From Chiloscyllium plagiosum (lineage: Eukaryota), in assembly GCF_004010195.1 (NCBI RefSeq), contig NC_057759.1, forward strand, positions 6,307,255-6,354,544: 47,290 bases of DNA, written 5' to 3'. The notes below the pieces were generated by a model. That model saw only the letters and a list, made by a program, of their open reading frames with translations. It ran no database searches and was not told the DNA's origin. Positions 1 through 39,639 of this stretch are shown in pieces. Position 1 is the stretch's first letter, and the number at the start of each line of letters is the position of its first letter. A program made the position numbers and the translations under genes.

Positions 1-379
1 GATGTAGCTGTGAATCTGTATTTGTCAACGTCTAGTTTATAAATGTGCAAATGCATTCACAGATTGTATCTGCCAGTGTTTTTGAAGTGTGTGTGGGGGT
101 TTGGGGTTGTGTGCTTAAGTATCATGCTCTCCCTTTCAGTTTCTACAGAGTGAATGTGTGAGAGCAGCTATCAATCACCGCCTGTCAGTTTTTGTTGTGT
201 CCACGTGAGAGTTCAGGAATTGAGCTAACCTTGTCAGTTTGTGCTGTGTGACTGAACGTCAAGTGCTGAATCAGTACCAGTCACTTTCAACTCTCATGCA
301 TCAAAAGTTGCTTAATTCGCTGACAGCCAATAATATTCTATGAGTCCAATGGTGACAAGGAATCTAATCTTGTTTGCCA

Positions 380-560
380 TCTGGTTCACTAATGTCCTTT
401 AAGGAAGGAAGCTGCCATCCTTACCTGGTCTGGCCTACATGTGTCTCCAGACCCACAGCAATGTGGCTGACATATAACTACCCCCTGGGAAGTTAGGGAT
501 GGGCAATAAATGCTGGCCTCGCCAGTGATTCTCTCATCCCATGAATGAATTTAGGAAAAA
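380..560 (+). mobile_element. SINE/LINE 3' tail fragment (common elasmobranch repeat)
   Basis: Ends GGGATGGGCAATAAATGCTGGCC..GCCAG...CCCATGAATGAAT plus an A-rich tail; the same tail type occurs at 14660-14730. Confidence 0.55.
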
Positions 561-3370
561 GAATTCTCTGTGACTGTGATTGATTCTGTGATAGATTTTA
601 GGGTGTTGTGATTTGGCCTTAATCTCTTCTGCATCATGTCATTTTTGGTAGAGTCACAGAATTGGTCCAGCCATTCAACCCTTTTGTGTCCAGACTGGGA
701 CATTCTGTTCTTCACCTATTCTCCATTCTAGTTTCCATTATCTGTTGGGATTCTGAATTTTATCCACTCACTGCCAGTATCTATCTAAATGCTAATTTGA
801 GATTATTCCTGCAGTTATCTGTCTTTGATAACTATAGTGCCAGTTATGTTCTGTGGGCAATAGCATCAGGTAGTGTTTGTGGATCTCGTTCTCTTTCCAC
901 GTTCAGTTGTGTTTTTTTGGTATGAGTGTTGGATAAACTTGATCAATATTCACTAACCTTTTGTGATTGAGGGATTAATGAATCTGAATTTTATTGCATT
1001 CAGACTTTTTAAATATATTTTGCGTATGCAGTAATCTTTATCAGTTGCTGCTGAACACTAAGATATAACATCTGACACTAACTGAAATGATTAATGCTTT
1101 GGTGAATCAATTTATAACTGTCCATATTTGGAAATACCTGGGCGTAAATTTCTTTTCTTTTCCCCTTTCAGCACTAACTGGCTGAGTGTGAGTGAGTTTT
1201 CTGTTGTGCTGCCAATCTGTATCACTTTAAAGGAGTGGCACTGGTCTATATCACACTGACACTTTTTTTATGTCGCCTTGTGTTTCCAGTTCTGCATGTC
1301 ATGATCTGGTACACTTTATAAGGTGGGTTTAATGCCTTATAAATCAGTGTTTCATATATTAAAAACGTATGGAAATGCTTCTGCATTACTCAGGTCCTCA
1401 ACCACAATGTGTGTGTGGAGAAAGTGTGTGTTCATCCACACCAGGCTCAGTGTGAGAATGAGATTCATTCACTCTCTGATACTAGATATCAATGTGCTCC
1501 TTATTCTTGGTTATTGTGTTTCACAGTGCTTCAGTGTCATCCAAATTGAAACATGTCACTTTTAGTAACTGCTACTGTACTTCAGTGTTCAAACTTGTGC
1601 TACTTGACATGAATGAGGTACTATCCATTGCCACTGGACTCAGCTCCTGTCTGTGAAAGTGAATGTGTTTGTATAACTGTTAATCTCTGGCACTGCACAT
1701 GTAGTTCGATAATGTCCACAGCCAATTTTCTTTAGCTTTCGTGCCTGTAGGATCCAGGGACAACTGAACATGCAACACATTGCAGCAGAAAAGCATCTGT
1801 GCTTTTCTTCAGAATCAAGGGGAGAAAAGCAATGGACTTTTGTAACTCCTATAGTGCAGAGTCTAACCGGGAACAATAGGGATATCAAGGTCTGGTTTTC
1901 AGAATGCTAACAATTTTTGCATTGTGACATGTATTCACCGAACCCATTTGCAACGAAGTAAACACTTCAACTGCATTCAAGCTGACTGACCACAGTGTTC
2001 CTTGTACAGGAAAGAGAATTGGCCAATTCTATTTTATTTACTAATGTGGACAGAATCTGGTGCAAGCCACTAGCAGACTCTTGTGTTGCTCTATGGTAGG
2101 GAGGGGAAAATCAAAAGGACTTTTATTTTCCACCATTCTGTGAAGAATAGTTCAATAAATTGAACTTAACAATTTAAATATCAACTTCTGTTGGAAAGAA
2201 AAATGAGCAGCTTGACAAACCGACCAATTTTGGCTTTCTCTTTCATGCTGCAATGATTTAAATAGTAATGATCTGATTCCAATGACTCCTTCAGAAAACT
2301 ATATCCTGATTCCTTGCTTTTTTTTGTACTATAATGAAGGGAGGGTCAAGAGGAATGCAGGGATCTTCATAGAAAATCAAAACGAATTTTGAAATACATA
2401 TAGAATAATTTTTAAAAAAACTTTCTTGCTGGAGAGAAAAATAAAATAACTACAAAATGATGAAATGGAGAATGAGGTTACGATACAGATGGAGATGACA
2501 GCTTCTCTGCTGCCATGATAGTTTTACGAAAATGGAATGCTGGTTGAAAGGAATTAGCATTGTTAGCTCAGTCAACTGTAATGTTGTTATAGACTGTCTT
2601 TGATCAGTCAGACTTAATAATTTGAAGAGACTTATTCTGTGCTGTAAGTTTCTTTGACTTGACATGAGAGTAGAAATCAGTTTGATGAAACGTTTTCTGC
2701 TAGTTGTGTATATGGATTTTCATTACTTTTGGATGTTGGAATGAGTATTTCAGGATGGCGTACAAATTTGCAACAATTGTCAATCAGTCAGTAGCTGTGT
2801 GTGAGAGAATGGTGTGTGTGTGCATATGTATGCAAGCACACATAAGAGGGTGGATTGGAGATGGTGGTTGTGTGTACATCAGGCTTTGGCTCAGAGGTTC
2901 ATTTGGAATTTACACTGTTTAGTTGTGCCTTTCACATAGGACTTCTATTTATCAAAAGATTAATTTTGCCCTTCTCAGTTACTGATAATGCCAAAGTTTC
3001 CTTCTATATCTTCAGAAATCCTTGCTGTAACAATGTAACAGAATGATCTGTTTGTTCACCTTGACTGTAACTTTAAAATTGCCTTCATTACATGTGGAGA
3101 TAATACAGTTCCTGAATGTATATTTCATAACAGGATACAATCTATCCCTCTTCTGATGTTGCAAATGATAATTGACTAAGCATCATGGCATTTATTGGAA
3201 ATGAGCTGTTGTGCATTGAGTATAGGGAGAAATCAAAAAAATATATTGCATCAGTTGTGTTTGACTCTTGGATTGAATGTATACTTCTGGAAATTAAGCT
3301 CAATGTGTATCTGACTCAATCCACTCTGACTGTGGAAAGGATGTTCTCCAATCTGACAACAATAACATAC

Positions 3371-3452
3371 CTGCTGGTTGTTAGAAGCAGCTGGTCACAC
3401 TTGGCTTTGTACTGAGGAAATATTACATTGTCTTGGTCCATAAATCATTTGC
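3371..3452 (-). other. Putative exon 2 (82 nt) downstream of element copy 1
   Basis: Acceptor CCCTCGTCTTCCTCCAG|G and donor CAG|GTATGT; the same sites are conserved in the paralogs. Confidence 0.5.
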
Positions 3453-3876
3453 CTGGAGGAAGACGAGGGATATTTCTTGTAAATCACCAACAGCTAAGTA
3501 GAAAGCTGATCGACTGATCAATGCAACATTCAGGTCATGATCATGATAATTCTGTTTTTAAACAGGGCAAGGTGAATAGTGCAAGGACTGGTTACACTCT
3601 AGCTCTGAGCTCCTCCCAGTCTTTTTTTTTCTGTTTGCGAAATTCCAAAACAATTTACTAAATTACAAAAGCTAACCAACATCTGCAAGTTCAATAGTCA
3701 GATCCCAATACATTAACTGTTGAAGGAAGAACAACAGGCACTACTCTCACATTTAGATATACTGTCCTTTAATTACCTACTATTCCATGTTTATTCGCAA
3801 CAAACAGCATGAAATAGAAGCCAAACAATGAAGTTCCATCAGAGTTTAGGTAATTAAAAACTACAAGAATGTCCGA

Positions 3877-4218
3877 CAGCAGCTTCTTCCCGCTCTGCCT
3901 CCCTCAGCAGGCCCACACACAGCCCGAGAAAGGCCTCTCTCTTCCCCCCAGCCCGCTCACTCCAAGTTCCGGGACCAGTTCCTGCTCCGCTCGGCCTCTT
4001 ACAAACAGCCCCCGGTTCTCCCTGAACTCACCCCGAATCAATCCCGGTCTCGGAGCCCCCTCTGTGTCCCAGGCTCCCATCCCGATGTGCTGTTGGAAGG
4101 AGCCTGCTGTTCCCTCGCTTCCCTGGGCGCTGATCTCTCCATTGCGGTCTGTTCCAAACAAACCTCTTACACTCACTGAGTAAATGCTCCTCAATGGCAG
4201 CGCTGGGGGAGGGCCTCA
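3877..4218 (-). other. 342-bp GC-rich conserved element, copy 1 (putative promoter/exon 1; donor GTGAGT at 4026-4031; NRF1-type motif at 4271-4281)
   Basis: About 6 mismatches versus copy 3 over 342 bp. Repeat status is certain; function is inferred. Confidence 0.6.
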
Positions 4219-4437
4219 AGCAATGCGTTCATCGAATTAGGAACAGCCAGCTTTGGAGGAAGGGCAGCATTGCGCATGCGCCTAAGGATGCAGGAATAAA
4301 TTATTCACATTAAACTGACTGTGACAGCAGCGGTGATAAATCCAGTGCAATATTGGGGATTGGGATTAAAGCACAAATTTCCAAAAAAGGGAATGTTTTC
4401 TCTAGAGCAGAGATGTCTGTAATGGGAACCGCTTTTT

Positions 4438-4530
4438 TCCTGATGAAGGGCTTTTGCCCGAAACGTCGATTTCGCTGCTCCTTGGATGCTGCCTGAACTG
4501 CTGTGCTCTTCCAGCACCACTAATCCAGAA
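4438..4530 (+). mobile_element. Penelope-type terminal-repeat fragment with hammerhead-like core
   Basis: CTGATGA-A-GGGC-TTTT-GCCC-GAAAC; same family as 27568-27798. Confidence 0.7.
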
Positions 4531-4544
4531 CCCGTGAATAAAGT

Positions 4545-4805
4545 ATAAACGATTTATGAGTGGGACAGGGTGAATAGAGAGAAGCTGTTTTCCTTGTTTG
4601 AGCGAGCAATCACAAGTAGTGCTTGGGTAACGATATGGTAAGCGTAAGGATTCTCGCTATGGTGAAGGGTTAGATATGAAGATATTGAGGGAATTTCAGG
4701 AAAATCTTTTCAGTGGTGGAAATCTGGAAGACACCGCATGCGAAGGTAGTGGAGGCCAGAAACCTTAACCTTTAAAAAGCATTTGGATGAGCACTTCAAA
4801 TGTCA
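4545..4805 (+). mobile_element. Old CR1 3' fragment
   Basis: Resembles the CR1 ORF2 end (GGTAGTGGAGGC...TTTAAAAAGCATTTGGATGAGCAC). Confidence 0.5.
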
Positions 4806-6792
4806 GTTCCGGAGCCACCATTCACGGTGGGATATGAACGGTGAATATCTCCCGAGGCAAACCAAAAAGAAACGTGTCTGTCTTTTGAGTACGAGGAGCA
4901 GATACACCTCACGATTGGCGGTCCATGCCTTTAGTTCTAGGCCTCGTAGACTCGAACCTGGGTCTCTGGCGCTGTTTTCTCCGATATCAGATTACAGTAA
5001 ATGGACCGAGATCAAACCTGAGCAGCTGCAGGACTGGGACAGCAAATGTGGAGTTTTTGCTGATGTCTGACCTTTCCAAACGCTGGGCGACATTAAAATA
5101 TTGTCTCAAGACGATTAATGAGCTCGGCCGGAAGAACGGTCTGTAATGTTTAATCAACATATCGGAGTGCTTTCAAAGTGTGAAATGAAGAGATTAATTG
5201 CAGATTGCAGTTCTTGGCGCTTGTTTTTGTTTCTGCCAGTTCTTCAGGTGTAGAAATAAAAGTAGAAAGAGATAGCTGCATCTAAGCAAATGAATGAGCG
5301 AGAGAGATTGTCTGAAGTATATATTTACAACCTAATTAACAAGTATTGATGAATTCCCCTCTGAACAACGTTCTTTTTAATACTTCATTTTTCTATGTAA
5401 AACATATCCCGTTATTTGTGAAATGGCGGGCTTTTCAAATTGGAAGGAAAGGTGTTGATGATTTGGCGCTGGCAGCAAGAGTAGAGAATGGGCTCTTGCT
5501 GCCAGCGGGAGCAGAGAATGTGCTCTTGCTTGCTGACTCTCGGGAGCATATTAAACACCAGTGAATCTGCCTTCTTTCCGTTTGCTGCTATTTGCTCAAG
5601 TCACTCTCTAATATTTGATTATTCCGGGAGCGACAAGCCCCGGTTGGGTGTGAGCCCTGAGTGTCACCACTGGGAAACAAAAGAAGTGCTCCTTTTCTTA
5701 CAGACCCACGGGTGGATAAATTACACATTTTTTTTTCATTTCCAAAACTCCGTGCGGGTTCTGTTGTGTTGCAGAATAGTATAAATGAGGCTTTCTGCTA
5801 TCGGTGAGAAGCTTGTCAAAATGAACAGAGATCAAGCCAGAACAGTTGCCGGACTGGAATTGTTAATGTGGAGCTTTTGCAATAAGGGAGCACGGTATTA
5901 AAATAAAACCTAAAGGCGGTGTTCGTTGTTAATGCGCTCACGCCGAAGAACATTCATGAAATCCTCACAGATTGAATGATGGTACTCACTCTCTCCGGAG
6001 ACAATCTCGAATGGTTCAAATAGCTTCTAGCCTCATTCATTTGCAATTTTTCTTTCGAGTAATGACTAAATACGAATGCTCCCTTCTCGGATCTACATTT
6101 CGGCAGGATTTTCAAATTTGAAAGAAAACGGTTGATGATTTGGCGCCATGTTTTCCCGCCTGCTTTCGCAGCAATGATCATGTAGTTACAGCTGGTAACA
6201 ACACCAAGGAAGACAGTGAGGACAGAGAGGATTTAATCCCGTATTAATACTGCACAACTCTAATGAAGCATGTGAAAGTTACATAACATTCACAGCATTG
6301 TATATTCTAATCTGTGTCTTCAACTAACTCCCCTGTAATGCATTACTGACGTCACACCCGTCCCCCTTTAATATCATTCAAAGCCATGTTCCAGCGTCTG
6401 CGATCGCTTGACTGGCGCTGTTACCTTGTTGTTTAACTGACTCCCCATCAATGTTTTACTCAGGCCCTGTGCACTTCGCAAATTACGATACCAATGTCCG
6501 CAAGTAAGAGTTCGATCTCTTGGTATCAAATCTTTCCCATCCCTAAAACGGCAAAATATATGAACACCGAGACAGAGAATTCGCGGGAATTTATAATCCA
6601 CTACCACAATGTCACGTTAAAATTATATTCCACAATCTGCCATAATAAATTGTGAACACGGGAGATTTCATTAGAAATGGAATACCTGCTCATGTCAACA
6701 TCGCTTACAACTCATTCCCTATTTATTTCCTAGTTTTATAACTACAATATAAATGTAACTAATCGCTTCCCGCTCTCTCTCGATGGTCTGGT

Positions 6793-6808
6793 GGCTCTGA
6801 AAAGAGCC
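6793..6808 (-). terminator. Histone 3' stem-loop of H3 (GGCTCTTTTCAGAGCC) with downstream purine-rich HDE (about 6771-6780, AGAGAGAGCG)
   Basis: Exact consensus 16-nt stem-loop on the minus strand, followed by ACCA, 70 nt after the stop codon. Confidence 0.97.
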
Positions 6809-6878
6809 GTTGTGTTTCTTTCTCTCTCTCTCTGTCTGTCTGTCTCGGGGTGAATGTGCAGGGCCAGCCAAGCTCCGT

Positions 6879-7316
<438 letters not shown>

Positions 7317-19869: not shown

Positions 19870-22390
19870 ATGGGCTTCATGATATTAGGCAAGAACTTTC
19901 AAAAGCTGATTGACAGATGTTCGCAGTTAAATGGATGGCTTGAAATGGGAAACCTTCAAAAATGAAATAACAAGAGTTCCTGTTAGGGTGAATGGCAAGT
20001 CTGGAAAGTGGAGGGAAGGCTGGATGATGGAGAAATTGAGGTTTTGGTTAAGAGAAAGAAGGAAACATATGTCAGGTATAGACAGCAGAGATCGAGTGAA
20101 TCCTTAGAAGAAGAAAAGGCAGCGGGAGTACTTAAGAGGGAAATCAGGAGGGCAAAAAGGGGATATGAGATAGTTTTGGCCAATAGTTTTAAGGAGATTC
20201 CCAAGGGATTTTATGAATACATTAAGGACAAAAGGGTAACAAGGGAGAGATTAGGGCCTCGCAAAGATCAGCAAGGCAGCCTTTGTGTGGAGCTGCAGAA
20301 GATGGGAGAAGATACTAAATGAGCATCTTGCATCAGTGTTTACTGTGGAAAAGGACATAGAAGATATACAATGTGGGGAAATAGATGGTGACATCTCATA
20401 AAATGTCTATATTATAGATGAAGAAGTACTGTATATGTATTGAAATGCATCAAGGTGGAAAACTCCCCAGGGCCTGATCAGACGTACTCTAGAGTTCTGT
20501 GGGAAGTTACGGAAGTGATTGCTGAGATTATTTTTATCATCGATAGTCACAGGTGAGGTGCCAGAAGACTAGAGGTTGGCTAACATGGTGCTAGAATTTA
20601 AGAAAGGTGGTAAGGAAAATCCAGGGAACTTTAGGCAGTTGAGCCTGCCATCAGTGTTGGCAAGATGTTGGAGGGAATCCTGAGGGACAGACCTTACACG
20701 TATTTCGACAGTCAAGGACTGGTTTGGGACAGTGAACATGACTTTGTGCATGGGAAACCATGACACTCAAACTAATTTGAGGTTTTTGAATAAGTAACGA
20801 AGAGGATTTCCCCATGGGAGACTGGTTAGCAAGGTTAGATCTCATGGAATACAGGGAGAACTCACCAGTTGGATACAGAACTGACTCAAAGATAGAAGAC
20901 AGAGGGTGGTAAAGGAGGGTTGTTTTTAAGATTGGAGGCCTGTGACCAGTGGAGTGCTACAAGGATCGGTGCTGGGTCCACTACTTTTCATTGTTTATAT
21001 AAATGCTTTGGATGTAAGCATAGGACCTATAGTAAGTAAATTTGCAGATGACACCAAAATCGGAGAGTAGTGGACAGCGAAAAAGGTTACCTCAGATTAC
21101 AACAGGATCTTGATCAGATGGGCCAATGGGCTGAGGAGTGGAAGATGGAGTTTAAATCAGATAAATGAGAGGTGCTGTATTTTGGGAAAGCAAATTTTAG
21201 CAGGATTTATGTATTTAATGTGAAGCTCCTAGGGAATGTTGCTGAACAAAGAGATTTGAGTGCAGGTGCATAGTTCCTTGAAAGTAGAGTCATTTGATAT
21301 GCTTTCCATTATTGGTCAGAGTTTTGAGTACATGTTGCGGCTGTACAGGACATTGGTTAGGCCACTGTTGGAATATTGCGTACAGTTCTGGTCTCCTTCC
21401 TATCAGAAGGATGCTGTGAAACTTGAAAGGGTTCAGGAAAGATTAACAAGGATGTTGCCAGAGTTGGAGGATTCAAGTTAGAAGGAGAGGCTGAACAGAC
21501 TGGGCTGTTTTCCCTTGAGCGTCGGAGGCTGAGGAGTGACCTTATAGAGGTTTATAAAATCAAGAGGGGCATGGATAGGCTAAATAAACAAGGTATTTTC
21601 CCTGGGGTGGGGAGTCCAGAACTGGAGGGCATAGGTTTCGGGTGAGAGGTCCCTTTTAAATTTTGCCCCTAAGGGGAAACATTTTTATGCAGGTGGTGGT
21701 GTGTGTATGGAATGAGCTGCCAGAGGAAGTGGTGGAGGCTGGAACAATTCCAACATTTAAAGGCATCCGGAAGCGTGCATGAATAGGAACAGTTTAGAGG
21801 GAGATGGGCCAAGTGCTGGCAAACGGCACTAGTGCTGCCACATGGGACATCATTATTTTCGAATATCTGGTTGGCATGGATGAGCCAGACCGAATGGTCT
21901 GTTCCTGTGTGTGGTGTAAAATTCCAAGCAGTGGAATGTGGTGAAACGGTTAAAAATTATGTCCCAATACATGTGTGAATCTAACCGGAATGGAGGTGTT
22001 GCTTAGTCCCGTGTGAATCTTCTTATCTGTATGTAACCAGAATGGAATGTGTTTTTTAGCCTTGCTCTGCTGTTCACATGAATGTTTATATCTGGAAAAG
22101 AGTATATCAGCTGGAAAAGTCTCCAGTTCGGTGAGTCTGCTCCGGGGTTACGTTTAACCGCCGAGCGTGGGTTGTTGGCAACCGCTCTACGAGAACTGAC
22201 GGCTCCCAGTTTTGGTAACATGTAGAGGGAGTATAAGCCAGACCCGTTCTGGCGACGCTGCGGGGAATAAAATGCCCATATTCTAGCAGACTCGCCTCTT
22301 GGTCGTTTGTTCTGTGTCAGACTACTCTCCTACGAACCTGACCTTGAGAATTTTTTAAAACACTGTGCTGTCCATCTCTATAACTCTATG
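19870..22390 (+). mobile_element. Decayed 5'-truncated CR1, tail interrupted by a solo LTR
   Basis: KFADDTKI, LYRTLVRPLLEYCVQFWSP, tail ATCTCTATAACTCTATG. Confidence 0.9.
21910..22362 (+). mobile_element. Solo LTR (453 bp) with 5-bp TSD CTGTG
   Basis: TGT...ACA ends, imperfect terminal inverted repeat, TATAA near 22232, AATAAA at 22266-22271, CTGTG at 21905-21909 and 22363-22367. Confidence 0.85.
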
Positions 22391-22909
22391 GCTGTGAATT
22401 ATAACAATTATTGGCAAATGGGGTGATGTACATAAAGAATGGAGAGAGAAAAAAAAAATGTAATTCCTCCGAGGTAGTTGACTCTTGATTTGAAAATTTC
22501 TCTCTGGAAACTGAGTCAACGTGTGTTGAATTCAATCTGCTCTGTAACTGTGGAAAGGATGTTCTTCAGTCTGACTGCAGTAACATACCTGTTGTTTTTT
22601 AGAAGGAACTGATCACACTTAGCTTTGTACCAAGGACATATTACACTGTCTTGGTCCTTCAAGTAATTGTTTGGTGGAAGACAGAAGAGACATCGTCTGT
22701 AAATCAACATTAAGTCAATGAAATAATTTAATAATCATCAGGCTGTTTTTCCTTCAAGACAGCAATTCCAACAGGACCACAGGGCTGATTCTATTCTTGG
22801 CCTGAGCTGCTCTTTAGTGATTGTATCAAAACATTCTGTACCAATTCACTGAGAACCAATACTAACCAACACCTCTACAAATGGGATAATCTGATGCCAG
22901 TGCGTGTCT

Positions 22910-24790
22910 GGATATGACAGTTTCCTTATCTATCTATAGCTGTCAGTTCCTCCTCAGTGAGTGTGTGAGAACAATTATCAAGATGTACCTGTTAAATGTT
23001 GCTCTGTGAATATCTGAGTGATAATTACAGTTTGATAATTACAATCAGTATAATCTGTGTATACATGTGAGTGAATGCAGTTATGAATCTGTCCCTGTCA
23101 CTCTCTGGTAAATATATTTACATTTTCTCATCACAAAGACAAATAGGGACAGACTGATAACTACACTCATACATTCACATAACATAAACTGACAGGTGCA
23201 GATTGATAACTGAACTCATGTATCCACATAGAGGAAACTGCCAGGGACTGGTTGATAAATAGATTTCATTCATTTTCAATAAATAGAATCAGTCCCTATG
23301 TGTTTCTCTGATGTGGATATGCGAGTTTAGTTATCAATATATACCTGTCAGTTTCTGCCCAGCGAATATGTGTGTTACTTACCAATCTGTCCCAAACAGT
23401 TTCTGCTGTGTGTCAACCTGAACCTGTCAGTTTCAGCTATGAGAATGTGAGTTTCGATATTAGTCTTGACCTGTCAGTTTCTGCTGTACGAATATTAAAT
23501 GCAGTCATCAATTTGTTGCCATCAGTTTATTCTGTGAGAATCTAGATATTGATCTCTACTTGTTAGTTTAAGCTATATCAATATGTGAGTGCAATTATCA
23601 AACAGTGTCTGTCAGGTTTTGCTATTTGACCCCAAAGTATCATTGTCAATCTGTTTCTACTATGTCAATGTGACAGTGTCCTGTCCCTGTCAGTTTCTTC
23701 CCTGTTAATATGTGAATACAGTTATTGATCAGTACCCATCAGCTTCTGCTGTAATGTGGGTGTATTAATTAGACTAGCTGTCAGTTTCAGTGATGTGAAT
23801 GTGGGAATACAGTTATCACTCTCTACCTGTCAATTTCTTCTTTGTCAAACTGAGTGTAACTGTCAATCTATATCTTTCAGATTGTGTGAATACATAAATA
23901 TAGTTGTCAATCTGTAATTGTCAGTTTCTGCTTGGTGAATATGTTTGTGTAATTGTCAATCCTTCCAGTTTCTACTATGTGACTGTGTGAGCTGAGATTT
24001 CATCTGTCGCAATCAGTTTCTGCTTTGTGACTGCGAGAGATCAGTTATCAATCTTTCCCGGTCAGGCTCTGTAGTGTCAGAGTTTGAGTGTATTTATTAA
24101 TCTTTCCCTGTCAGTTTGTGTGACTGTAGTTATCAACCTGTACCTCTCAGATTCTACTTTATGAATATATAAGTATAGTTATCCATTTGATTTGATCTGA
24201 TCTGATTATTGTCACATGCACTGAGATACAATGGAAAGTATTGTTTTGTGCACTTTACAGGCAGATAATATCATACAAAATGCATCAGGGTAATAGAACA
24301 GAATCCGCAATACAGTATTAAAGCTGCAAAGAGAGAGATTAGCGTTAAAATTTGAGCGAGATTCGAGTGGTGCGAGAAAGGCACAGCAGGTCAGGCAGCA
24401 TCCGAGGTGCATTATGGATAGAATGTAGGTGTTCTACAAGGTGGACACCAAAATCTACATTCAGTTTCCCCAACATAGAGGAGACCACATTGTGTGCATT
24501 TTCCTTGCCACCGTCAGTTCTGAGGACCAGTCACTAGACCCGAAATGCTGCCACACCTGTGAATTTTCCACTAATTTCTGTTTTGTTATCAATCTCAATC
24601 TGTCAGTTTCTCCTCTGTGAATATGTGAGTGTCGTTATCAAAGTGTACACGTCAATTTAGGTGATTTGAAATTGGGAGCATAATCAATCTACGAGGAGAA
24701 GGGCCTGTGCCCGAAACGTCGAATCTCCTGTTCCCTGGATGCTGCCTGACCTGCTGTGCTGTTCTAGCAATAAAGTTTCAGCATAACCAA
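22910..24790 (+). repeat. Degenerate ~47-bp tandem repeat (approx. CCTGTCAGTTTCTGCTGTGTGAATGTGAGTGTAGTTATCAATCTGTA); also at 1-290
   Basis: Recurrent CTGTCAGTTTC and GTTATCAATCT at about 47-nt spacing (e.g. 23423 and 23470). Confidence 0.8.
24692..24779 (+). mobile_element. Penelope-type terminal fragment with ~15-bp TSD (AGCATAAYCAATCTA at 24677-24691 and 24780-24794)
   Basis: GAAGGGCCTGTGCCCGAAACGTCG...GATGCTGCCTGACCTGCTG. Confidence 0.7.
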
Positions 24791-24798
24791 TCTATTCA

Positions 24799-25204
24799 NN
24801 NNNNNNNNNNNNNNNNNNNNNNNNNNNNNNNNNNNNNNNNNNNNNNNNNNNNNNNNNNNNNNNNNNNNNNNNNNNNNNNNNNNNNNNNNNNNNNNNNNNN
24901 NNNNNNNNNNNNNNNNNNNNNNNNNNNNNNNNNNNNNNNNNNNNNNNNNNNNNNNNNNNNNNNNNNNNNNNNNNNNNNNNNNNNNNNNNNNNNNNNNNNN
25001 NNNNNNNNNNNNNNNNNNNNNNNNNNNNNNNNNNNNNNNNNNNNNNNNNNNNNNNNNNNNNNNNNNNNNNNNNNNNNNNNNNNNNNNNNNNNNNNNNNNN
25101 NNNNNNNNNNNNNNNNNNNNNNNNNNNNNNNNNNNNNNNNNNNNNNNNNNNNNNNNNNNNNNNNNNNNNNNNNNNNNNNNNNNNNNNNNNNNNNNNNNNN
25201 NNNN
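24799..25204. other. Assembly gap (406 N)
   Basis: N run. Confidence 1.
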
Positions 25205-26444
25205 CCACTTTTGCTCTGTGTGCAACAGTGACGAGTCAAGTATGTGGATGCCATTCTCTTTCTACGTTCAGTTGTGTTTTTTCAGGCAGCATGTAGGATA
25301 AACCAGTTCAATGTTCGCTAAACCTGTGTGATTGAGGGATTAATGTTGGTTCAATACTTACCTTTGCAAAGAATTTGAATTTTACTGTATTAAATATCAG
25401 GTTTAATTTTACATTTTGTGTGTGCAGTAGTCTTTGTCAGTTGCTGCTCGGCACTGCTATAATGTAACATCTAACACTAACATCTTCAGAAGTGATTAAT
25501 AATTTGGTCAGTCAATTTATGACCGTCCATATCTGGAAATACTTGTTGGCCTAAATTGCATTTTTCTCCATTTAAACATTAACTGGCTAAATGTGAGTGA
25601 GTTTTCTGTTGGGCTCCAATCTGTATCACTTTGAAGAGTGGTACTGGTCTATATCACACCGACATTGTATGTCTCTTTGTGTTTCCAGTCCTGCATGTCA
25701 TAACCTGATGCAATTTATGAGGTGGGTTTAATGTCTTATCAATTAGTGTTTCATACATTAAAAGGTGTGGAAATACTTCTGCATTACTCAGGCCCTCAAC
25801 CAGAATGGGAGTGTGGATAAAGTGTATTTTCATCAACACCAGGCTGAGAAACAGACAGACAGATGTGTATGCACGTGTGTGAATGGGCTTTCAGCATCCT
25901 CTCTAGAAGCATTCTCTGTCGATAAGGCTTGACCAAGAGGTACATTTGGAATTTACATTGTTTGATTATTGCCTTTGCACAGGACAACTATTTAGCAAAA
26001 GAATAAATTTGTCCTGCTCAGTTACTCAATGTCCAACTTTGCTTCTATATCTCCACTCAATATCAACTTCATTTCTATATCTGCACTCAATATCAACTTC
26101 ATATATACTTGTTATAACAATATAACAGCATGATTGATTATTGATTATAACTTTAAAAATGCCTATTCTACACATGGAGTTAATGCAGCTCAAATGTATA
26201 TTTATTACAAGCATACAGTCTAACCTGCTCTAATCTTATGATAATTGGCTTTGAATAATGGAATTTTCCATCACGGAGGTGGTATGCATTGAGAACAGGG
26301 TGAAATAATATAGATTTATATATCGTCAGCTGTGTTTAACTCTTGGATTGAATTGTACTTCAGGAAATTGAGCTCAATGTGTGTCTGACTCAATCCACTC
26401 AGACAGTGGAAAGGACATTCTCCTCTCTGACAATGGTAACATAC

Positions 26445-26499
26445 CTGCTGGGTGTGAGAAGCAGCTGGTCACCCTTGGATTGATCCATCAAATATTTGC
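26445..26499 (-). other. Putative exon 2 (55 nt) downstream of element copy 3
   Basis: Acceptor CTCTCTTTTGTCTTTCTCCAG|G and donor CAG|GTATGT. Confidence 0.5.
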
Positions 26500-26992
26500 C
26501 TGGAGAAAGACAAAAGAGAGGGCTCCGGTACATCACTAGCAGCTGAGTAGGAAGACATCAAATGATCAATGCAATATTCAGGTCATGATCATTATAATTC
26601 TTTGTTTTTGAACAAGGTAAGGTGAACAGAGCAGAACGTGGTTCCACTCGAGACCTGAGCACCTTCCAGTCTTTTTCTATTTTCGAAATTCAAAATCATT
26701 TTCCTAAGATAAAAATAAACTAACCAAGAAGTGCACAGCTCCACAAATGGAATGATTGCACAGTTCAATATCCAACTCCCAATACACCAACTGTTGAAAG
26801 ACGAACACTAGACCATTTCACATGCTTTGAGACGTTTCCCGGTGCCTGCGATATTTACCCTTCACAGGGTTATTACATTTGTTTCTACTGTCCTTTATTT
26901 CAATGTCTATTCGCAACAAACAGCGGAAAATAGAAGCCAAACAATGAATTTCCATCAGTGTTTAGGGGATTAAAATCCACAAGAATATCCCT

Positions 26993-27334
26993 CAGCAGCT
27001 TCTTCCCGCTCTGCCTCCCTCAGCAGGCCCACACACAGCCCGAGAAAGGCCTCTCTCTTCCCCCCAGCCCGCTCACTCCAAGTTCCGGGCCCAGTTCCTG
27101 CTCCGCTCGGCCTCTTACAAACAGCCCCCGGTTCTCCCTGAACTCACCCCGAATCAATCCCGGTCTCGGAGCCCCCTCTGTGTCCCAGGCTCCCATCCCG
27201 ATGTGCTGCTGGAAGGAGCCTGCTGTTCCGTCGCTTCCCTGGGCGCTGATCTCTCCATTGCGGTCTGTTTCAAACAAACCTCTTGCACTCACTGAGTAAA
27301 TGCTCCTCAATGGCAGCGCTGGGGGAGGGTCTCA
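26993..27334 (-). other. Conserved element, copy 3 (donor at 27142-27147; NRF1-type motifs at 27334-27343 and 27382-27392)
   Basis: Direct repeat of copy 1. Confidence 0.6.
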
Positions 27335-27567
27335 CGCATGCGCTCCTCTCGTAAGAAACAATAAGCATAGGAGGGCAATATTGCGCATGCGCTACTCTCC
27401 AAATGCCTCCCAGAAACAAAATGTTTTTGTTTATTCACTCCTGGAACGTGGATGTCGCTGGCATTTATTCTCCATCCCTTTGAGAAGGGGGTGGTCAGCT
27501 ACCTTCAGGAACAGTTGTTGTCCATGTGCTGCCCACAATGTCATGAACAGGGAGTTCCAGGGTCTTG

Positions 27568-31725: not shown

Positions 31726-32705
31726 ATTCAAGATAGTTTTTGGTCAAACGAAAAGGCCTACAATTTGGGAAGAAATTTAGCAAAAGACGTGAAGGCTGCA
31801 AACATCCAAATTCAGCAAATGACAGCGAAAAGGGATTTGATTAACAAAGAGCAAATGAAGAAAACCGTAACTTTGTGGAAGCCATTAAAGAAAAAGAAAA
31901 TGTTGAAGCACTAATAAATGTGTAAAGAGAGAAATAGGTTGGTAAAGAGGACCATATGTCACTTACAACATAAAAGAGGGGAGTTCAAAATTTGGAACAA
32001 AAACATCTTCAAAAATCGCTAACATACTGTTGTTTTCTGTTCAGAGATGTTCACATAACTAACACAGTAGTAATGTTGGGAGTTTAGTGAGAGGGAAAAA
32101 CTGAACCAAATCAGTATTATTTGGGAAATGATGTTGGGATAGTGGATAGGATTGAAGGTTGTGAAACACCAGGTCTTGATCATCTACGTCCCAGAGTATT
32201 TAATGTAGTGGACTGAGTAATAGTGGATGCAGTGGTGGTCATGTTCCAAGATTCCATAAACTCTGCAGTAATTTACTCAGATTGGGGGTGAGCTAGTGTA
32301 AGCAATCCAATGGAAAAGGCAGGTAGGCATAAAATTGGGAACTATAGACCAGTCAGCCTGCAGGGAAATATCAAATGAAAGCTTCAATTGCGAAGCATTT
32401 GACAAAACAGTATTCAGGATCTGCTGGAGTCAGCATGAACATGAAGGGCCTGTTCCAGTGCACACTGTTCTGTCTTCTAAGGTTGACAAACCGACTGGCC
32501 ATCTTTGAGGGTGTAAACAGTAGAGCTGATGAGAGTGTAACAGTTACTGAGGAGAAGAACTGCAACTAACTCCCTGGACACCGCAGCAAAGGCTGAAAGG
32601 AAGAGAAATTCTATCCTTCCACACTTTCTGGCGTGTGACTATGTGAATGTGAATATTGTGTCAGAGAGACTGGAGGCAAACGGCGGACGGTTAGTCTGAC
32701 GTAAC

Positions 32706-33135
32706 TGTGTTTGTGTGTCCGCTAACATTATGATATTTCCAAGTCTCTCTTATGTAACTCAAAAATATTTACAATTCAAATTATCTCCCTGCTTCCCTTC
32801 TAAACCCCAAAGGTAGATTTGAAGGCAATATATTTGTTAGTTTCAAGATTTCGGTCTAAAAGTAGCGACAATGTCACCGTTCAGCTCAGAGAGCGCCATC
32901 AGTGCAGCAGCAAAGTGCGTTTAACTCGACAACGGAGCCGTCATTTCGAGTGAAAACTTTTCAGCCGTAAAGCTTCCCGTGTCAGGGTGAGGAGCGATCG
33001 AGCCTGGCTCTCTGGAGATGCGGAATTTCAGAGGAATCGGAGAGTTTAGGCCGTTAGAGAAACACAGAAAGGCAGCAGGAGCAGGGAGCTGACGGCGGGT
33101 TGTCCCTGCGCCGTCCGCTCGCTGCCTTGAAGTTG
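32706..33135 (+). promoter_or_regulatory. H1 copy B promoter: TG box (32706-32712), H1/AC box (33060-33066), GC box (33094-33099), CGTCCGC (33112-33118)
   Basis: Motifs read directly. Confidence 0.8.
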
Positions 33136-33214
33136 CTCAGTGCCGCCACCAGCAGCTTCATTGCTTACCCAGTTCAGACTGACCCAGAGAGAGATTCAGC
33201 GCAGAGTTCTCAAC

Positions 33215-33895
33215 ATGAGCGACAGTGCAGCCGCCGAAACGGCTCCGCCAGCCGCCGCTCCTACTAAAGCCAAGGCTCCCAAGAAGAAGGCGGCGGCTCC
33301 CAGGAAAAAAACACCCGGTCCCGGGTTGGGAGAGCTGATTCTGAAGGTTGTCGGGGATATCAAGGATCGCAAAGGGGCGTCTCTGTCCGCTGTAAAGAAG
33401 GGGCTGGAGAGAAGCGGGATCGATGTGGGAAAGCGAAAGGCACAGATCAAGATGAGTATCAGGAGGTGCCTGGCGAACGGCTCCCTTGTTCTGGTCAAGG
33501 GCCATGGCGTCTCCGGCTCCTTCAAACTCCCAAAGAATCCAGTCAAGGCAAAAGCGGGAAAGAAGGCGGGAACATCAGCGGCCGCCAAGAAACCGGCCGT
33601 GAAGAAATCACCGGCCAAGAAGGTGACAACGAAGAAATCCCAGGCCAAGAAAGCGACAGTGAAGAAATCCCCAGCCAAGAAAGCGATAGCCAAGAAATCC
33701 CCAGCCAAGAAAGCGAGCGGCAAGAAGCCGGCACCGCCAAAGAAAGCGGTGAGCAAAGCAGCGCCAAAGAAACGGACTCCCGTGAAGAAGGTGAAAAAGG
33801 CCAAGGGCCTTAAAGCCCCCAAATCCCTCAGCAAACCGGCTAAAGGCAAGGCCAAGCCCAAAGCGAAAGTGACCAAGACAGCAGCAAAGAAATGA
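33215..33895 (+). CDS. H1: Linker histone H1, divergent subtype, copy B (226 aa)
   Basis: Paralog of copy A, with about 9 aa substitutions and one fewer 10-aa tail repeat. ATG at 33215, TGA at 33893-33895. Confidence 0.97.
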   Translation: MSDSAAAETAPPAAAPTKAKAPKKKAAAPRKKTPGPGLGELILKVVGDIKDRKGASLSAVKKGLERSGIDVGKRKAQIKMSIRRCLANGSLVLVKGHGVSGSFKLPKNPVKAKAGKKAGTSAAAKKPAVKKSPAKKVTTKKSQAKKATVKKSPAKKAIAKKSPAKKASGKKPAPPKKAVSKAAPKKRTPVKKVKKAKGLKAPKSLSKPAKGKAKPKAKVTKTAAKK

Positions 33896-33931
33896 ACCAG
33901 TCGATGTAACATATAACCATCTGAACCCAAA

Positions 33932-33972
33932 GGCTCTTATCAGAGCCACCCACATCTCTCAGGTAAAAGCTG
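33932..33972 (+). terminator. Histone stem-loop (33932-33947) and HDE-like AAAAGCTG (33965-33972) of H1 copy B
   Basis: CCCAAAGGCTCTTATCAGAGCCACCCA read directly. Confidence 0.95.
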
Positions 33973-34559
33973 AGCCCGGATCCAATGTTCCTTGTCCCAG
34001 CGCCGCGCGCAGACCTACCTCAGTTATTAATCGATCTGAATAACTCAAACACTCATGCCATGGTTTACGAGAGCGCAACCTGTTGAATGCGGAAGGGATC
34101 AAATAGGGACGGTCGGGTTTATTGATCTCCATCTGGTTATTTCACTTCGCGACTTATAACCCTACCGAGTCACGAATATGACATATCGTAGTATTTGTAT
34201 TTCACTGACCCGTTCAGGAATTTTGTTCAGTTTTCATTCTGGGACGCTGCGCATGTTTTCATGGCGCGTTCCTTCCATCTACCTGCTACAGACAGTAATT
34301 CCACATTGGCTTCAGCCTAATTACAATCTGAGGATAATAAAAAAAAACAGCTAAAGTAAGATTCTGTCCTTTTATCGGTGTACACTGCATTTACTTTTAA
34401 GATTTTTAAATTGGCGGGTTGTTTAGATTGATTCACGGCCGGTACAAGTTCGGCTGTTCAGTTGGTCTGGGCTATTCTAAACCCCGCCTTTCCTCCTGCC
34501 TGTTACAGACAGATCAGGCAATGATCCCACCTCCTCTCTCCGCTGACAGCTAACTGGGT

Positions 34560-34907
34560 TTTAAATAATAATAATTACGATAAAATATTAAATTTTAACT
34601 TAGTTGCAGACGGATGTTTGCGTTTGAATGTTTAATTTAATCTCAGTGTTGTCAGAGTGAATTCGGCGGGAATTTTTAAACTGACCAACTGTCATTTCAC
34701 GTTCCCCAATCAGTCTCCAACAATTCTTTTCCGTACCTTCCGGAGCTGTTTCTGTGTTGAGGGCTGTATCCTTCTCTGTGTTGAGGGCTGTATCCAATTC
34801 CAGATCTCGGGCGGGCTCTCCATTCCCTTAAACAGGCAGCACCGCAGTAGCGTCAGCATTGACAGCAGTGGCATGTGTGTGTTGTAGATATTTGAAGAGA
34901 ATGGCAG
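34560..34907 (+). pseudogene. H3 remnant: promoter, 5' UTR and ATGGCAG only; the rest of the CDS is absent
   Basis: Inverted paralog of 7283-7620 (TTGAAGAGAATGGC matches the intact H3 start). TATA is altered to TTAAACAG. The sequence switches to Tx1 right after the ATG. Confidence 0.9.
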
Positions 34908-35988
34908 TCTTGAGAGGAGCGTATCAGCAAAGTGAGGCAGAGACTGGGCAGATGGAAGCTACGGTCGCTCTCCATCGCGGGAAAAAACCTAGTCATCAGG
35001 TGTGAGGCACTGTCATTGCTATTTTACGTGGCACAGGTCTGGCCTATTCCCAGAACCTGTGACCCTGCTGTCACCCGGGCCATCTTCCAGTTTATATGGG
35101 AGGTCAAAGATGGACCAGGTCCGAAGGGACTCGCTGTACAAAGATCTGGGCAATGGGGGAAAAATACACCCAATGCCACCCTCACCCTGATGACCACCTT
35201 TGTGTGTGGCTGCATCAAGCTGTGCGTGGATCCCCGGTACGCAAACACCAAGTGTCACTACGTACTGAGGTTCTACATGTCCCCGGTGTTGCAAAGGATG
35301 GGCCTGGCCTCGCTGCTGCGGAACGCTCCAAGTAGTTGGACCGTTCCGTATCATCTGTCCTTCGGAGAAGTTTATGAAGAAAAACACCTTTGACCACAAG
35401 TCCATCAGGAAGTGGTCAACACATAGTGTCCTCGAGACCCTTCAGGAAAAGGAGAGGGCGGATCCTATCGAGCGGTTCCCTGAGCAGACTGTCAAAGCCA
35501 TTTGGCAGAATGCCTCATCGCCAGAACTTTCCAACAAGCACCAAGACGTGGCTTAGCTGATAGTGAGAAGGGCTTTGCCTGTGAGATCCTTTATGCACGC
35601 CCGGACTCTCAGCACGTTGACCTCGAAGCAGCTGCGGGGGGACGAGACTGTCACACACCTCCTTCTGGAATGTGTCTATGCAGAAGAAGTCTGGAGAGGA
35701 ATGCAGTGGTGTTTGTCGAGGTTTGTCCCGAGCAGCGCCGTGACGCGGGACTCCGTGCTCTACGGCCTGTTCCCCGGGACGCACACCGAGACGAACATCA
35801 ACTGTGCCTGGAGGATCATCAACTCGGTGAAGGACACTCTCTGGGTGGTCCGAAACCTGTTGATCTTTCAGCTGAAGGAGTTGACCCCGACTGAGTGTTG
35901 CAGACTGGCACATTCCAAGGTCCAGGACTACGTGTTGAGGGACGCGCTGAAGCTGAGGCAGCTGCCGCCAATGCACGGTGGGGAAAGA
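34905..35988 (+). mobile_element. Tx1-clade non-LTR retrotransposon, ORF2 C-terminal fragment truncated at both ends
   Basis: (W)EERISKVRQRLGRWKLRSLSIAGKNLVI...AIFQFIW; WQNASSPELSNKHQDVA; CGGDETVTHLLLEC (zf-RVT/CCHC); RDALKL. Stops and frameshifts present; no 3' UTR or tail. Confidence 0.88.
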
Positions 35989-36574
35989 ACTGTCATGTGA
36001 ACACAACAGAAACTGACAGGCGTAGATTGATAGCTGCTCTCACCAACTCACCCTGCAGAAACTGAAAGGGAGAGCATGATACTTAAACACACCCCTCACA
36101 CTCCCCACACACACTTTACAAACACTGGCACGTAGTCTGATAAATGCATTTGCACCTTTATAAACTAGACATTGACAGATACAGATTCATAGCTATATCT
36201 TGAGATACACAGAGCAGAATATAACAGGGACAGATTGTTCAATCACACTCAAATGCACATGGCAGGACATTTCAGAGGAAGACTCATAACTGCATTTTCA
36301 TTCACAAAGCAGAAACTGACAGGAACAGATTGATAACACTGTTTCAAATGACTTAAATTAACATGTACAGTTTGATAATGACACTCTCATACTCACAGGA
36401 GACACTGACAGGTAGAGATTGATAATAAAATAAGTTAGTGTTACATTTGAGGTCTAGTGACCCTTCCTCAGAACTGACTGTGTGCATTCTCCTAGCTGCC
36501 ATGTGGTCTTCTCTATTCTGGGGAAACTGAGCGTAGATCGAGTGTCCACTTTCTGTCCAGAAAACAAGGCCCTG

Positions 36575-37135
36575 AGCTTCCACTTGCCTGCCACTTCAAC
36601 ACGCCACCCAGTTCCCTGATGAACATCTCTGCCTCAGGCTTGCTGCAGTGCTCCAGCTAAAACTCAGTGCAAGATTAGATTAGATTAGATTAGATTAGTA
36701 CTGGCTGGAAGAACAGTACCTCATTTTCTGCTTGGGAATATAACAGCCTTCTGGACCCAATATTGAGTTCTACAACTAGGGCTAGAGCTTTCCCATGTCA
36801 TTACCCAGAACCTCTCACACCAGGCCTTGTTATCACAAGGTCTGCTATTATACACCAACAGTCACTAACAGTCCCTGTTAATAGTGATTCACCTTCCTCG
36901 TCTGACCGTGATCTTTGTATTCTATATCCATCTACCATTTACTATTGACCCTTCAACATACCCTACCTTCTGTAGAAAAACTAATCACTTCCTGGCTACC
37001 ATCAATTCTCAGGAAGGGTTCCTGGACTGGAAATGTTAATTCTGATTTCTGTCCATAGATTCTGTCAGACCTGCTGAGCCTTTCCAGCAACTTGATTTTG
37101 CTTCTGATTTCCAGCATCCGCATTCTTTTGCTTTT
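36575..37135 (+). mobile_element. Old Penelope 3' fragment (GIY-YIG C-terminus plus terminal repeat) with an (ATTAG)5 insert at 36674-36698
   Basis: ACHFN...LEEQYLIFCLG..QPSGPNIEF. Confidence 0.7.
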
Positions 37136-37424
37136 CATTTAGAGATTAATAACTAAATTTTCATATTCACAGAGCAGAAACTACCAGAAAATTGCTAACT
37201 ACATTCACATGTTTACAAAAGAAAATTTGTCAGACAAACATTGATAAATACACTCACATTTACATTAAAGAACCTAACTGGGAAGGATCCTTAACTAAAC
37301 TTAACTAAAACCTTCACAAACCTGACAGAGACTGTTAAACACTAAAATCTCCCATTCACATAGCAGAAAGTGGCAGGCTTAGACTGACAATTACCCAAAC
37401 CCATTCACCAAGCAGATATCCTCA

Positions 37425-37960
37425 GGAGGCTAAGGAAATTCATCATGTCTATAAAGACTCATGCAAGTTTTTATAGATGCACCACCTTTCTGGATGCGTC
37501 ACAGTGTGGTATGGCTACTGTTCTGCCCAAAACCACAAGAAACTACAGTGAGTTGTGAGCACAGCCCAGCCCATCACTGAAAGCAGTCTTCCATCCAAAA
37601 GGCTCTCTTTACACTTGCCCCTGTCTCAGGAAAGCAGTCAATATAATCAAAGACTCATCTGACACCGGTTCTACGCTCCTCCACTGTGGTCTATCAGGTA
37701 GAAAATACAGAAGCTTGAATACACCATCCAACAGATTCAAGAACTGATCCTCTGCTGTTATTAGACTTTTGAATGCATCTCTCAAATTTTAATGTTAATT
37801 TCTCTCTCTGCACCTTTGCTGCAGCTTTAACACTTCATTCCAGATGCTGTTTTATTACCCTAATGCAGTTTGTATGATATGATCTGCCTGTAAGGCACTT
37901 AAAACAATACTTTTCATTGTATCTCTGTACATGTGAGAATAATAAATCAGATCAAATCAA
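37425..37960 (+). mobile_element. Rex1/Babar-like LINE 3' fragment (tail paralog at about 24186-24350, -)
   Basis: FYRCT...SGCVTVWYGYCSAQNHKKLQ; tail AATAAATCAGATCAAATCAA. Confidence 0.65.
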
Positions 37961-39639
37961 GTGAATAACTATACTCTCATGTTGCAGAATCTGAGAAGTA
38001 CAGGTTGATAGCTACAGTCACACAACCTGACAGGAAATGAATAAATACATTCAAACCCTGACATTACAGCACCTGACAAGAAGGATTGATAATTAAACTC
38101 TTATTCACAAAGCAGAAACTGATAGTGACAGATGAAAGCTCAGCTCACACATTCACATAGCATAAACTGGCAGGAATTGACAATTATACAGACATATTCA
38201 CCAAGCAGAAACTGACAATAATAGATTGATAACTATATTTATGTATTCACACAAGAGTTTGAAAAGTGCAGATTGACAATTACAGTCTCACTTTGACAAA
38301 GAAGAAATTGACAGGTAGACAATGATAACTATACTAGTCACATATTGACAGGGACAGATTGGTATTGACTCTTTCAAATTGACGTGGTAGAAACAGATTG
38401 ACAATGACACTCTGGTGTCAAATAGCAAAACCTGACAGGTACTGTTTGATAATAGCACTGAGAAATTGATTATAGCTAAAACTGACAGGTGGAGATCAAT
38501 GTCTACATTCACACAGAAGATACTGACAGGTACAAATTGATGACAGCATTTAATATTCATACAGCAGAAACTGGCAGGGAAATACTGAGAATGACACACC
38601 CGTTCTCAAAGCTGAAACTGACAGGTTCAGGTTGATAACTACACTGTCAGATACACAGCAGAAACTGTTAGGGAAAGATTGTTAAGTAAATTCACACATT
38701 CACAACGGCAGAAACTGACAGGTATATATTGAGAACTAAACTCACATCCCCATCAGTGAAGCACACAGGGACTGATCCTATTTATTTAAAATGTATTTAT
38801 CAATCAATCAATCACTCAGTCTCTGCCAGTTTCTACTATGTGGATATGAGTTCAGTTATCAATCTATACCTGTCAGTTTATGCTATGTGAATGTAGTTAT
38901 CAATCTGTCCCTGTCACTCTCTAATTGGACATTGCAGAGAGTGACGGGGAGAGACTGATAACTATATTAACTCTCACATTTGCACGGCCTATACTGACAG
39001 GTACAGGTTGACAGCCGTACTCCCACATTCACCTCGCAGGAACTGACAGGTATGGATTGATTAGGAAACTCTCAGATCCTGATACAAACTTGTATTGGGT
39101 AGCCCCATTGTGGAGCTGTAGAGGTGTTGGTTAGTAGCTGGAGAGGTGTTGGTTAGTAGCTGGTTCTCAGTGAATTGGTATAGATTTCTTTTGTTACAAT
39201 CACTAGACAAAGAGCAACTCGGGCCAAAAATGGAGTCAGAACTGTAGTTCTGTTTGAAATGCTGGTTTGAAAGAAACACAGCCTCATAATTTTAAAATGA
39301 ATATTACATTAAGTGAATTTGACAGTATCAAACCTTTCAATGTTGATTTACAGGAGATGTCTCTTCTCTCTTCCTCCAGACAATTACATGAAGGAGCAAG
39401 ACACGGTACGAAACCAAGTGTGATCAGATCCTTCTAACAAACAGTAGGTGTGTTATCATTGTCAGACTGAAAAACATACTTTCCACAGTCACAGAACAGT
39501 TGAATTAGACACACATGGAACTCAATTTCTAGAGAGAAGTTTTCACAAGGATAGTCAAATACCACCAAGCAATTTTTTTTTTAATCCTTCTCCATTCTCA
39601 ATTCACATCATCCCATTTCCAATAAATGTATCATTCACA

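What the first reader, a model, noticed from the sequence alone, without database searches (positions are those of the whole stretch)
34895..36020. H3 gene lost: about 7 kb replaced by a doubly truncated Tx1 fragment joined at the H3 start codon
Seen: the right arm follows the H3 promoter to ATGGCAG, switches to Tx1 ORF2 for about 1.08 kb, and at about 35987 resumes homology with window position about 214. The counterpart of about 215-7282 (H3 CDS, stem-loop and a fourth copy of the 342-bp element) is missing. The Tx1 piece has no 3' UTR, tail or TSD. Established: endonuclease-independent LINE insertions can patch breaks with large deletions, and several Tx1-clade families target multicopy genes (Keno at U2 snRNA, Mutsu at 5S rRNA, Dewa at tRNA arrays). 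Inference: either cDNA-patched break repair, or an H3-targeting Tx1 insertion followed by a deletion.
Basis: partly seen in the sequence, partly recalled or inferred. Interest (0 to 1): 0.7.

Follow-up and report, generated by a model that had tools for sequence, protein, structure and literature searches.

The report
LINE fragment replacing shark H3 gene
In a duplicated shark histone region, one of two H3 gene copies was lost and a decayed piece of a very common jumping gene sits in the gap; this is an ordinary kind of rearrangement, and nothing found here shows that the element aims at histone genes.

Summary
The right arm matches the left-arm H3 promoter up to ATGGC (34905), carries 1,083 bp of LINE ORF2 (34906-35988), then rejoins the mirror of position 214. 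The mirror of 215-7284, with H3, is missing. A third paralogous unit keeps part of that segment, so this is a loss. Reads show the family continues beyond both junctions: the piece is cut at both ends, with no tail or target duplication. H3 targeting is not supported. H3 lies at the 5' junction, not the target-defining 3' junction, and family read depth exceeds H3-promoter depth about 194-fold (range 81-434). Flanks of other copies could not be read. A one-step break patch (0.42) and an ordinary insertion followed by a deletion (0.36) cannot be separated; junction microhomology is at chance level. No listed read or contig bridges either junction, and this exact haplotype was not seen in two contig sets, so misassembly is not excluded (0.08). 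'Tx1' is likely but was not tested by phylogeny. A new example of a known process; interest low.

The parts
34352..34905 (+). Orphan H3 promoter and 5' UTR of the right arm, ending in the start codon plus two bases (ATGGC, 34901-34905)
   Evidence: 12.8% substitution distance to the left-arm promoter
34906..35988 (+). Decayed LINE ORF2 fragment (post-RT region and zf-RVT, to the last codons before the stop), Tx1-like, cut at both ends; 2 in-frame stops, 5 indels against the family majority
   Evidence: 307 of 342 residues identical to P0001 in five separately translated segments
35987..35988 (+). 3' junction: 2-nt microhomology (GA) shared by the LINE family and the arm
   Evidence: chance of 2 nt or more is about 0.16
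35987..36199 (+). Resumed arm homology, mirror of window 214-1
   Evidence: 85.6% identity, 13.1% substitution distance
215..7284 (.). Left-arm segment (7,070 bp) whose mirror is missing from the right arm
6879..7289 (-). Intact replication-type H3 gene of the left arm, stem-loop near 6793-6808
3878..4218 (.). Highly conserved element of about 341 bp (three copies in the window); its right-arm mirror falls in the lost segment
   Evidence: 9 of 341 columns vary among three copies
33212..33895 (+). Intact H1 gene of the right arm (227 aa); left partner 9496-8783 minus (237 aa)
19884..27392 (.). Third, older paralogous unit that is collinear across the right-arm 3' breakpoint and keeps the mirror of 840-1450 and 2878-4281; polarises the event as a loss
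   Evidence: 19884-24671 follows 41724-36342 (reverse), 25205-27392 follows 840-4281, at 70-82% identity; an N run (24799-25204) lies between

Best explanation
After an inverted segmental duplication of an H1-H3 unit, the right arm was broken and repaired in one event that used RNA or cDNA of an abundant Tx1-like LINE as a patch. Reverse transcription was primed inside the element, about three codons before the ORF2 stop, at the distal broken end (mirror of position 214). The 1.08-kb cDNA was joined at its other end two bases after the H3 start codon, and the segment between (7 kb in left-arm terms, with H3) was lost. The piece then decayed neutrally. Shown: the anatomy, the truncation at both ends, the direction of the change, the abundance of the family. 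Inferred: that patch and deletion were one event and did not use the element's endonuclease. The H3 position is taken to be incidental.
For: 3' truncation, no tail, no duplication, flanking deletion match three of four criteria and the usual outcome of non-classical L1 insertions (PMC1920257: 18 of 21 with deletions, two of 5.9 and 14.5 kb, one removing a gene; passages and sections 11-12). One event explains both junctions. Both flanks are collinear with the same left arm at similar distance (12.8% and 13.1%). The piece carries private stops and indels along its length, as a single old copy would. Many Tx1 families prefer other targets (PMC4494074), which makes an endonuclease cut at H3 codon 2 less expected (inference).
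Against: Microhomology is at chance level: 2 nt at the 3' junction (P about 0.16) and none strictly at the 5' junction, with an imperfect GCCA overlap one to two bases away. 15 of 21 human non-classical insertions carry extra nucleotides; this one has none. Sen et al. kept only copies under 2% from consensus and used orthologous empty sites to exclude later deletions; here most laid reads are 90-95% alike (7,627 of 15,863) and only paralogs exist, so that filter cannot be applied. No listed read or contig bridges a junction.
Confidence: 0.42

Rival explanations
1. Two ordinary steps. A 5'-truncated copy inserted by normal target-primed reverse transcription at H3 codon 2 and killed that gene copy; a later, independent deletion ran from the end of ORF2 to the mirror of position 214, removing the 3' UTR, tail, duplication and H3 remnant.
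For: The family has some thousands of copies (about 2,300-3,500 for a 3.0-4.5 Gb genome), so chance insertions are common. The copy is old and the region is heavily rearranged. Clean junctions without extra nucleotides fit. Sen et al. name this as the mimic of non-classical insertion.
Against: Needs two events; needs an endonuclease cut at H3 codon 2 by a family whose target preference is unknown.
Confidence: 0.36
2. Two LINE copies or two deletions: the lost segment held one or two copies of this family, and recombination between them, or two separate deletions, left one fragment between the two flanks.
For: Abundant family, repeat-rich and rearranged region.
Against: The left arm and the third unit hold no copy of this ORF2 region: in tblastn of 21 relatives against the window every strong match lies in 34896-35955. 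Both end junctions still need explaining.
Confidence: 0.08
3. Assembly artefact: the junctions do not exist in the animal.
For: None of the 24 listed pieces (45,491 not shown) bridges a junction. At several listed places no contig of runs X17 or X4 carries the window's letter (34848: 546.3 of 546.3 and 1042.6 of 1042.6 depth differ; 36047 likewise), although 36306-36521 is matched without a difference in X4. The window has two N runs.
Against: The nearest N is 9.7 kb away. A collapsed repeat would resemble the family majority, but this piece has private stops and indels. Both flanks are collinear with one arm. Contigs drop rare variants in multicopy regions, and a bridging read in X19 is expected to be missing with P 0.68-0.77.
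Confidence: 0.08
4. A Tx1 family or subfamily that targets the H3 start region inserted here, and a deletion followed.
For: The 5' junction is two bases after the start codon, which a random breakpoint in 7 kb would hit within 3-10 bases with P 0.001-0.003 (a post hoc figure). Tx1 families often target multicopy genes.
Against: Target-specific elements are marked by precise 3' boundaries and variable 5' ones (PMC4640811); here H3 is on the 5' side only. Depth ratio 194:1 caps the share of copies at look-alike H3 promoters near 0.5% (0.2-1.2%), against Kojima's 20% criterion. None of 86 relatives' gene models holds H3 sequence (best E 0.59; a weak test).
Confidence: 0.04

Closest known systems
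Non-classical (endonuclease-independent) L1 insertions, Sen et al. 2007, PMC1920257 (passages and sections 11, 12 read)
   Same: LINE fragment cut at the 3' end, no tail, no target duplication, multi-kb deletion, loss of one member of a multigene family (their NCLI61)
   Different: Shark Tx1-like element, not human L1; much older copy; no extra nucleotides; no orthologous empty site; endonuclease site unknown, so the mechanism is not established
Target-specific Tx1-clade LINEs: Keno (U2), Mutsu (5S), Dewa (tRNA-Leu spacer), Kibi/Koshi (microsatellites), Tx1-Mar (PMC4494074 passages and section 15; PMC3706591 passage)
   Same: Relatives encode APE-type endonuclease, RT and zf-RVT, some with a CCHC-knuckle ORF1; junction at a multicopy gene
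   Different: Gene lies at the 5' junction only; no recurrence seen; element far outnumbers the supposed target
Shark LINE ORF2 fragments annotated as uncharacterised proteins (Hemiscyllium P0001, Cetorhinus P0002, Scyliorhinus P0010)
   Same: Same family or close kin: 90%, 77% and 71% residue identity over separately translated segments
   Different: Their flanks and targets could not be read

Membership tests
Tx1 clade of non-LTR retrotransposons | ORF2 with APE-type endonuclease, RT and C-terminal zinc-binding domain (L1/Tx1 group) | tested here: met
   Window piece: weak zf-RVT hit, E 0.0013, under the curated cut-off. P0001 zf-RVT E 2e-10; relatives P0023 and P0024 (40-42% to P0001) hold endonuclease, RT and zf-RVT and P0024 matches human L1 ORF2p at E 2e-40. 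Endonuclease and RT are not in the window piece.
Tx1 clade of non-LTR retrotransposons | RT phylogeny places it with named Tx1 elements rather than L1 | not testable with these tools
No displayed hit name said Tx1, so no named reference was on hand.
Tx1 clade of non-LTR retrotransposons | ORF1 with CCHC zinc knuckle (recalled as a Tx1 trait that vertebrate L1 lacks) | tested here: inconclusive
   Present in gene models of distant relatives P0025, P0031 and P0061; the shark family's own ORF1 was not seen.
Target-specific Tx1 family (H3 as target) | More than 20% of copies flanked by the target (Kojima 2015) | tested here: not met
   Indirect: depth ratio 194:1 (81-434) in run X19. Counts only promoters at least 85% alike; the left-arm promoter is itself near that limit. 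Flanks were not tabulated.
Target-specific Tx1 family (H3 as target) | Precise 3' junction of the element in the target gene | tested here: not met
   The 3' junction is inside ORF2 and joins non-H3 sequence.
Non-classical LINE insertion (Sen 2007) | 3' truncation, no poly(A) tail, no target duplication | tested here: met
Non-classical LINE insertion (Sen 2007) | Insertion site departs from the element's endonuclease consensus | not testable with these tools
   The family's cleavage preference is unknown; flanks of other copies could not be fetched.
Non-classical LINE insertion (Sen 2007) | Young copy and orthologous empty site exclude a later deletion | tested here: inconclusive
   The copy is old and only paralogous arms give the pre-insertion state.
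Non-classical LINE insertion (Sen 2007) | Microhomology above chance at both ends (a property of their set, not required per locus) | tested here: inconclusive
   2 nt at the 3' end (P about 0.16), 0 nt strict at the 5' end against the left-arm H3 and the family majority.

The most novel reading that the evidence does not exclude
A minority subfamily of this shark LINE has an endonuclease that cuts at histone H3 start codons, making a protein-coding multigene family a retrotransposon target, and this locus is one such insertion later trimmed by a deletion. My paper searches showed no histone-targeting LINE in listings or passages read; Repbase and subscription papers were not searchable.
Probability: 0.04. 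Interest if true: 0.65.

Novelty: new member of a known kind. Interest (0 to 1): 0.2.

Why it matters
As it stands it is a clear single example of birth-and-death in a shark histone region: one H3 copy lost with a LINE fragment at the scar. If the one-step reading is right it extends break patching by LINE RNA from primate L1 to a Tx1-like element in cartilaginous fish, a modest extension. Only recurrent H3 junctions would make it surprising, and the evidence points away from that.

Tried and rejected
No whole genome is held for this window, so genomic copies and their flanks could not be tabulated. Scans for loci of relatives found none: metagenome contigs twice, viral contigs, prokaryote genomes. 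Rfam: 0 matches in the window. Laying reads and contigs (4 of 21 listed runs): no bridging record among 24 listed pieces; inconclusive. Organism C holds 36310-36468 at 4 differences and 1 gap, but whether it has the junction was not seen. Look-ups of earlier findings by the fragment's DNA and by P0001 gave nothing, so the LTR-targeting Tx1 family noted elsewhere in this genome could not be tied to this one. Rejected: an H3-LINE retro-chimera made by template switching on H3 mRNA, because kilobases upstream of the start codon are collinear with the left arm. Rejected: an H3-ORF2 fusion protein, because the H3 start codon opens a 34-codon frame out of phase with ORF2. Rejected: gain of 7 kb on the left arm, because the third unit keeps the segment and the right arm keeps the H3 start. 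In 17 of 20 listed flank places the reads' other letter equals the left arm's; these places were chosen by the tool as differences, so this shows private mutations, not faster decay. The bacterial promoter scan has no bearing. PMC7348941, PMC8869645 and PMC6136364 (passages) held nothing on histone targeting by Tx1. Supplements were not opened; the flank figures of PMC4494074 may list further targets.

Full report
Setting. The window is animal DNA, 42.6% GC, with two N runs. The best protein match to the insert is from the epaulette shark Hemiscyllium, and the other named hits are sharks and rays, so a carpet-shark-like source is inferred. No whole genome is held. The window is a mosaic of duplicated units, with a large inverted pair of arms: 8348-12092 against 30643-34327 at 87.3%. 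Each arm has an intact H1 gene (227 and 237 aa).

The observation. Moving outward, the right arm matches the left-arm H3 promoter (34352-34905 against 8040-7285; 12.8% substitution distance) and ends at ATGGC. The left H3 is intact with a stem-loop. From 34906 to 35988 the right arm holds 1,083 bp of LINE ORF2: tblastn places it on residues 75-428 of the 442-aa P0001, and five separately translated segments are identical at 307 of 342 residues, with two stops. At 35987 homology resumes with the mirror of position 214 (85.6%, 13.1% substitution distance). Of left-arm 215-7284 only one 309-bp piece at 71.5% recurs right of 28000. A third, older unit follows 41724-36342 in reverse and then 840-4281, across an N run, so the ancestral unit ran through the right-arm breakpoint and the right arm is the derived one.

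Both ends are cut. I laid 4 of 21 listed runs on 34000-36700 at 85% likeness. In raw reads of run X19, 646 reads run on before 34906 and 736 behind 35988 with agreeing loose ends; the latter pass through the ORF2 stop into a 3' UTR. Five indels at 35098, 35159, 35363, 35635 and 35953 separate the window copy from about half to three quarters of the reads. Of 15,863 laid reads, 87 are 99% or more alike, 3,881 are 95-99%, 7,627 are 90-95% and 4,268 are under 90% (all parts of the stretch together), so the copy is old. No word of 7 nt or more is shared between the junction regions. The 3' junction has a 2-nt overlap (GA), which chance gives with P about 0.16. The 5' junction has no strict overlap against the left-arm H3 and the family majority; both share GCCA one to two bases away, which may be a blurred microhomology or chance.

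What the element is. Relatives at 40-42% identity to P0001 carry an APE-type endonuclease, RT and zf-RVT, and one matches human L1 ORF2p at E 2e-40. Some carry ZCCHC3-type RNA-binding domains and a CCHC knuckle, which I recall as a Tx1 trait. No displayed hit was named Tx1, and no tree with named references could be built. 'Tx1-like' is therefore the tested level of the claim.

H3 targeting. Three results speak against it. First, target-specific elements have precise 3' and variable 5' boundaries (PMC4640811, passages); here H3 is at the 5' side, and the 3' junction is inside ORF2. Second, mean depth in X19 is 1,487 over 11 LINE bins and 7.7 over 5 promoter bins, a ratio of 194 (81-434 at the extremes). 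That caps the share of copies at look-alike H3 promoters near 0.5%, against the 20% criterion of PMC4494074 (passages and section 15). Limits: promoters under 85% alike are not counted, the left-arm promoter is near that limit, human-like reads are filtered, and organism A is not proven to be the window's species, though 36306-36521 is matched without a difference. Third, none of 86 relatives' gene models holds H3 sequence (weak). For targeting stands only the position two bases after the start codon (P 0.001-0.003, post hoc). The direct test, a table of flanks, could not be run. Earlier AI notes report an abundant LTR-targeting Tx1 in this genome; look-ups by sequence did not tie it to this family.

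Mechanism. Sen et al. 2007 (PMC1920257; passages and sections 11-12) define non-classical L1 insertions by 3' truncation, no duplication, no tail and departure from the endonuclease site; 18 of 21 had deletions, up to 14.5 kb, one removing a gene. This locus meets the first three; the fourth is untestable. I put the one-step patch at 0.42 and ordinary insertion plus later deletion at 0.36; the evidence does not separate them. Either way the process is known.

Are the junctions real? Not shown independently. None of the 24 listed pieces bridges a junction (45,491 not shown), and at several listed places no contig of X17 or X4 has the window's letter. That may reflect dropped variants in a multicopy region, polymorphism, a species difference or an assembly error. 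Against error: the nearest N is 9.7 kb away, the piece has private decay unlike a collapsed repeat, both flanks are collinear with one arm, and a bridging read in X19 is expected to be absent about 70% of the time. Misassembly 0.08.

Literature. Searches showed no report of a histone-targeting LINE or of this locus in the listings and passages I saw; the library lacks most subscription papers and Repbase. Searches were seen as listings only. Supplements were not opened.

Verdict. Observation confirmed in the sequence; interpretation partly supported; new member of a known kind; interest 0.2.

Noticed in passing
window 3878-4218, with copies inside 26899-27392 and 15336-15811: An element of about 341 bp varies at only 9 columns among three copies while its surroundings are 75-89% alike. 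It is GC-rich, lies beside GCGCATGCGC (an NRF1-like site, recalled) and holds a splice-donor-like site on the minus strand: possibly a homogenised or constrained promoter and first exon.
   Followed up: partly
window 33212-33895 and 9496-8783: Both H1 genes are intact; their coding regions differ by 3.2% against 10-11.5% in the flanks, and differ by 10 residues in length in the repetitive tail. No H2A, H2B or H4 gene was found by motif scan.
   Followed up: partly
window 7631-7820: A palindromic insert of about 190 bp in the left H3 promoter, absent from the right arm, with relatives at 11491-11678 and 31050-31239; MITE-like.
   Followed up: no
window 34833-34840: The TATA-like box of the orphan promoter differs at two places from the left-arm one, while CCAAT and GC boxes are kept. 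Expression was not tested.
   Followed up: no
window 13264-13617 minus: Weak endonuclease-domain hit (E 0.0003, under the cut-off), probably an old LINE remnant inside the duplicated unit.
   Followed up: no
protein P0025 (a fish): The gene model runs endonuclease, RT, zf-RVT and then ORF1-type domains, the order expected from a head-to-tail array of elements, a hint that distant relatives rebuild and reuse a target.
   Followed up: no
window 22365-24359, 36280-36430, 37228-37416, 37778-39667: A degenerate tandem-repeat sequence runs through the units on the distal side of the breakpoint.
   Followed up: no
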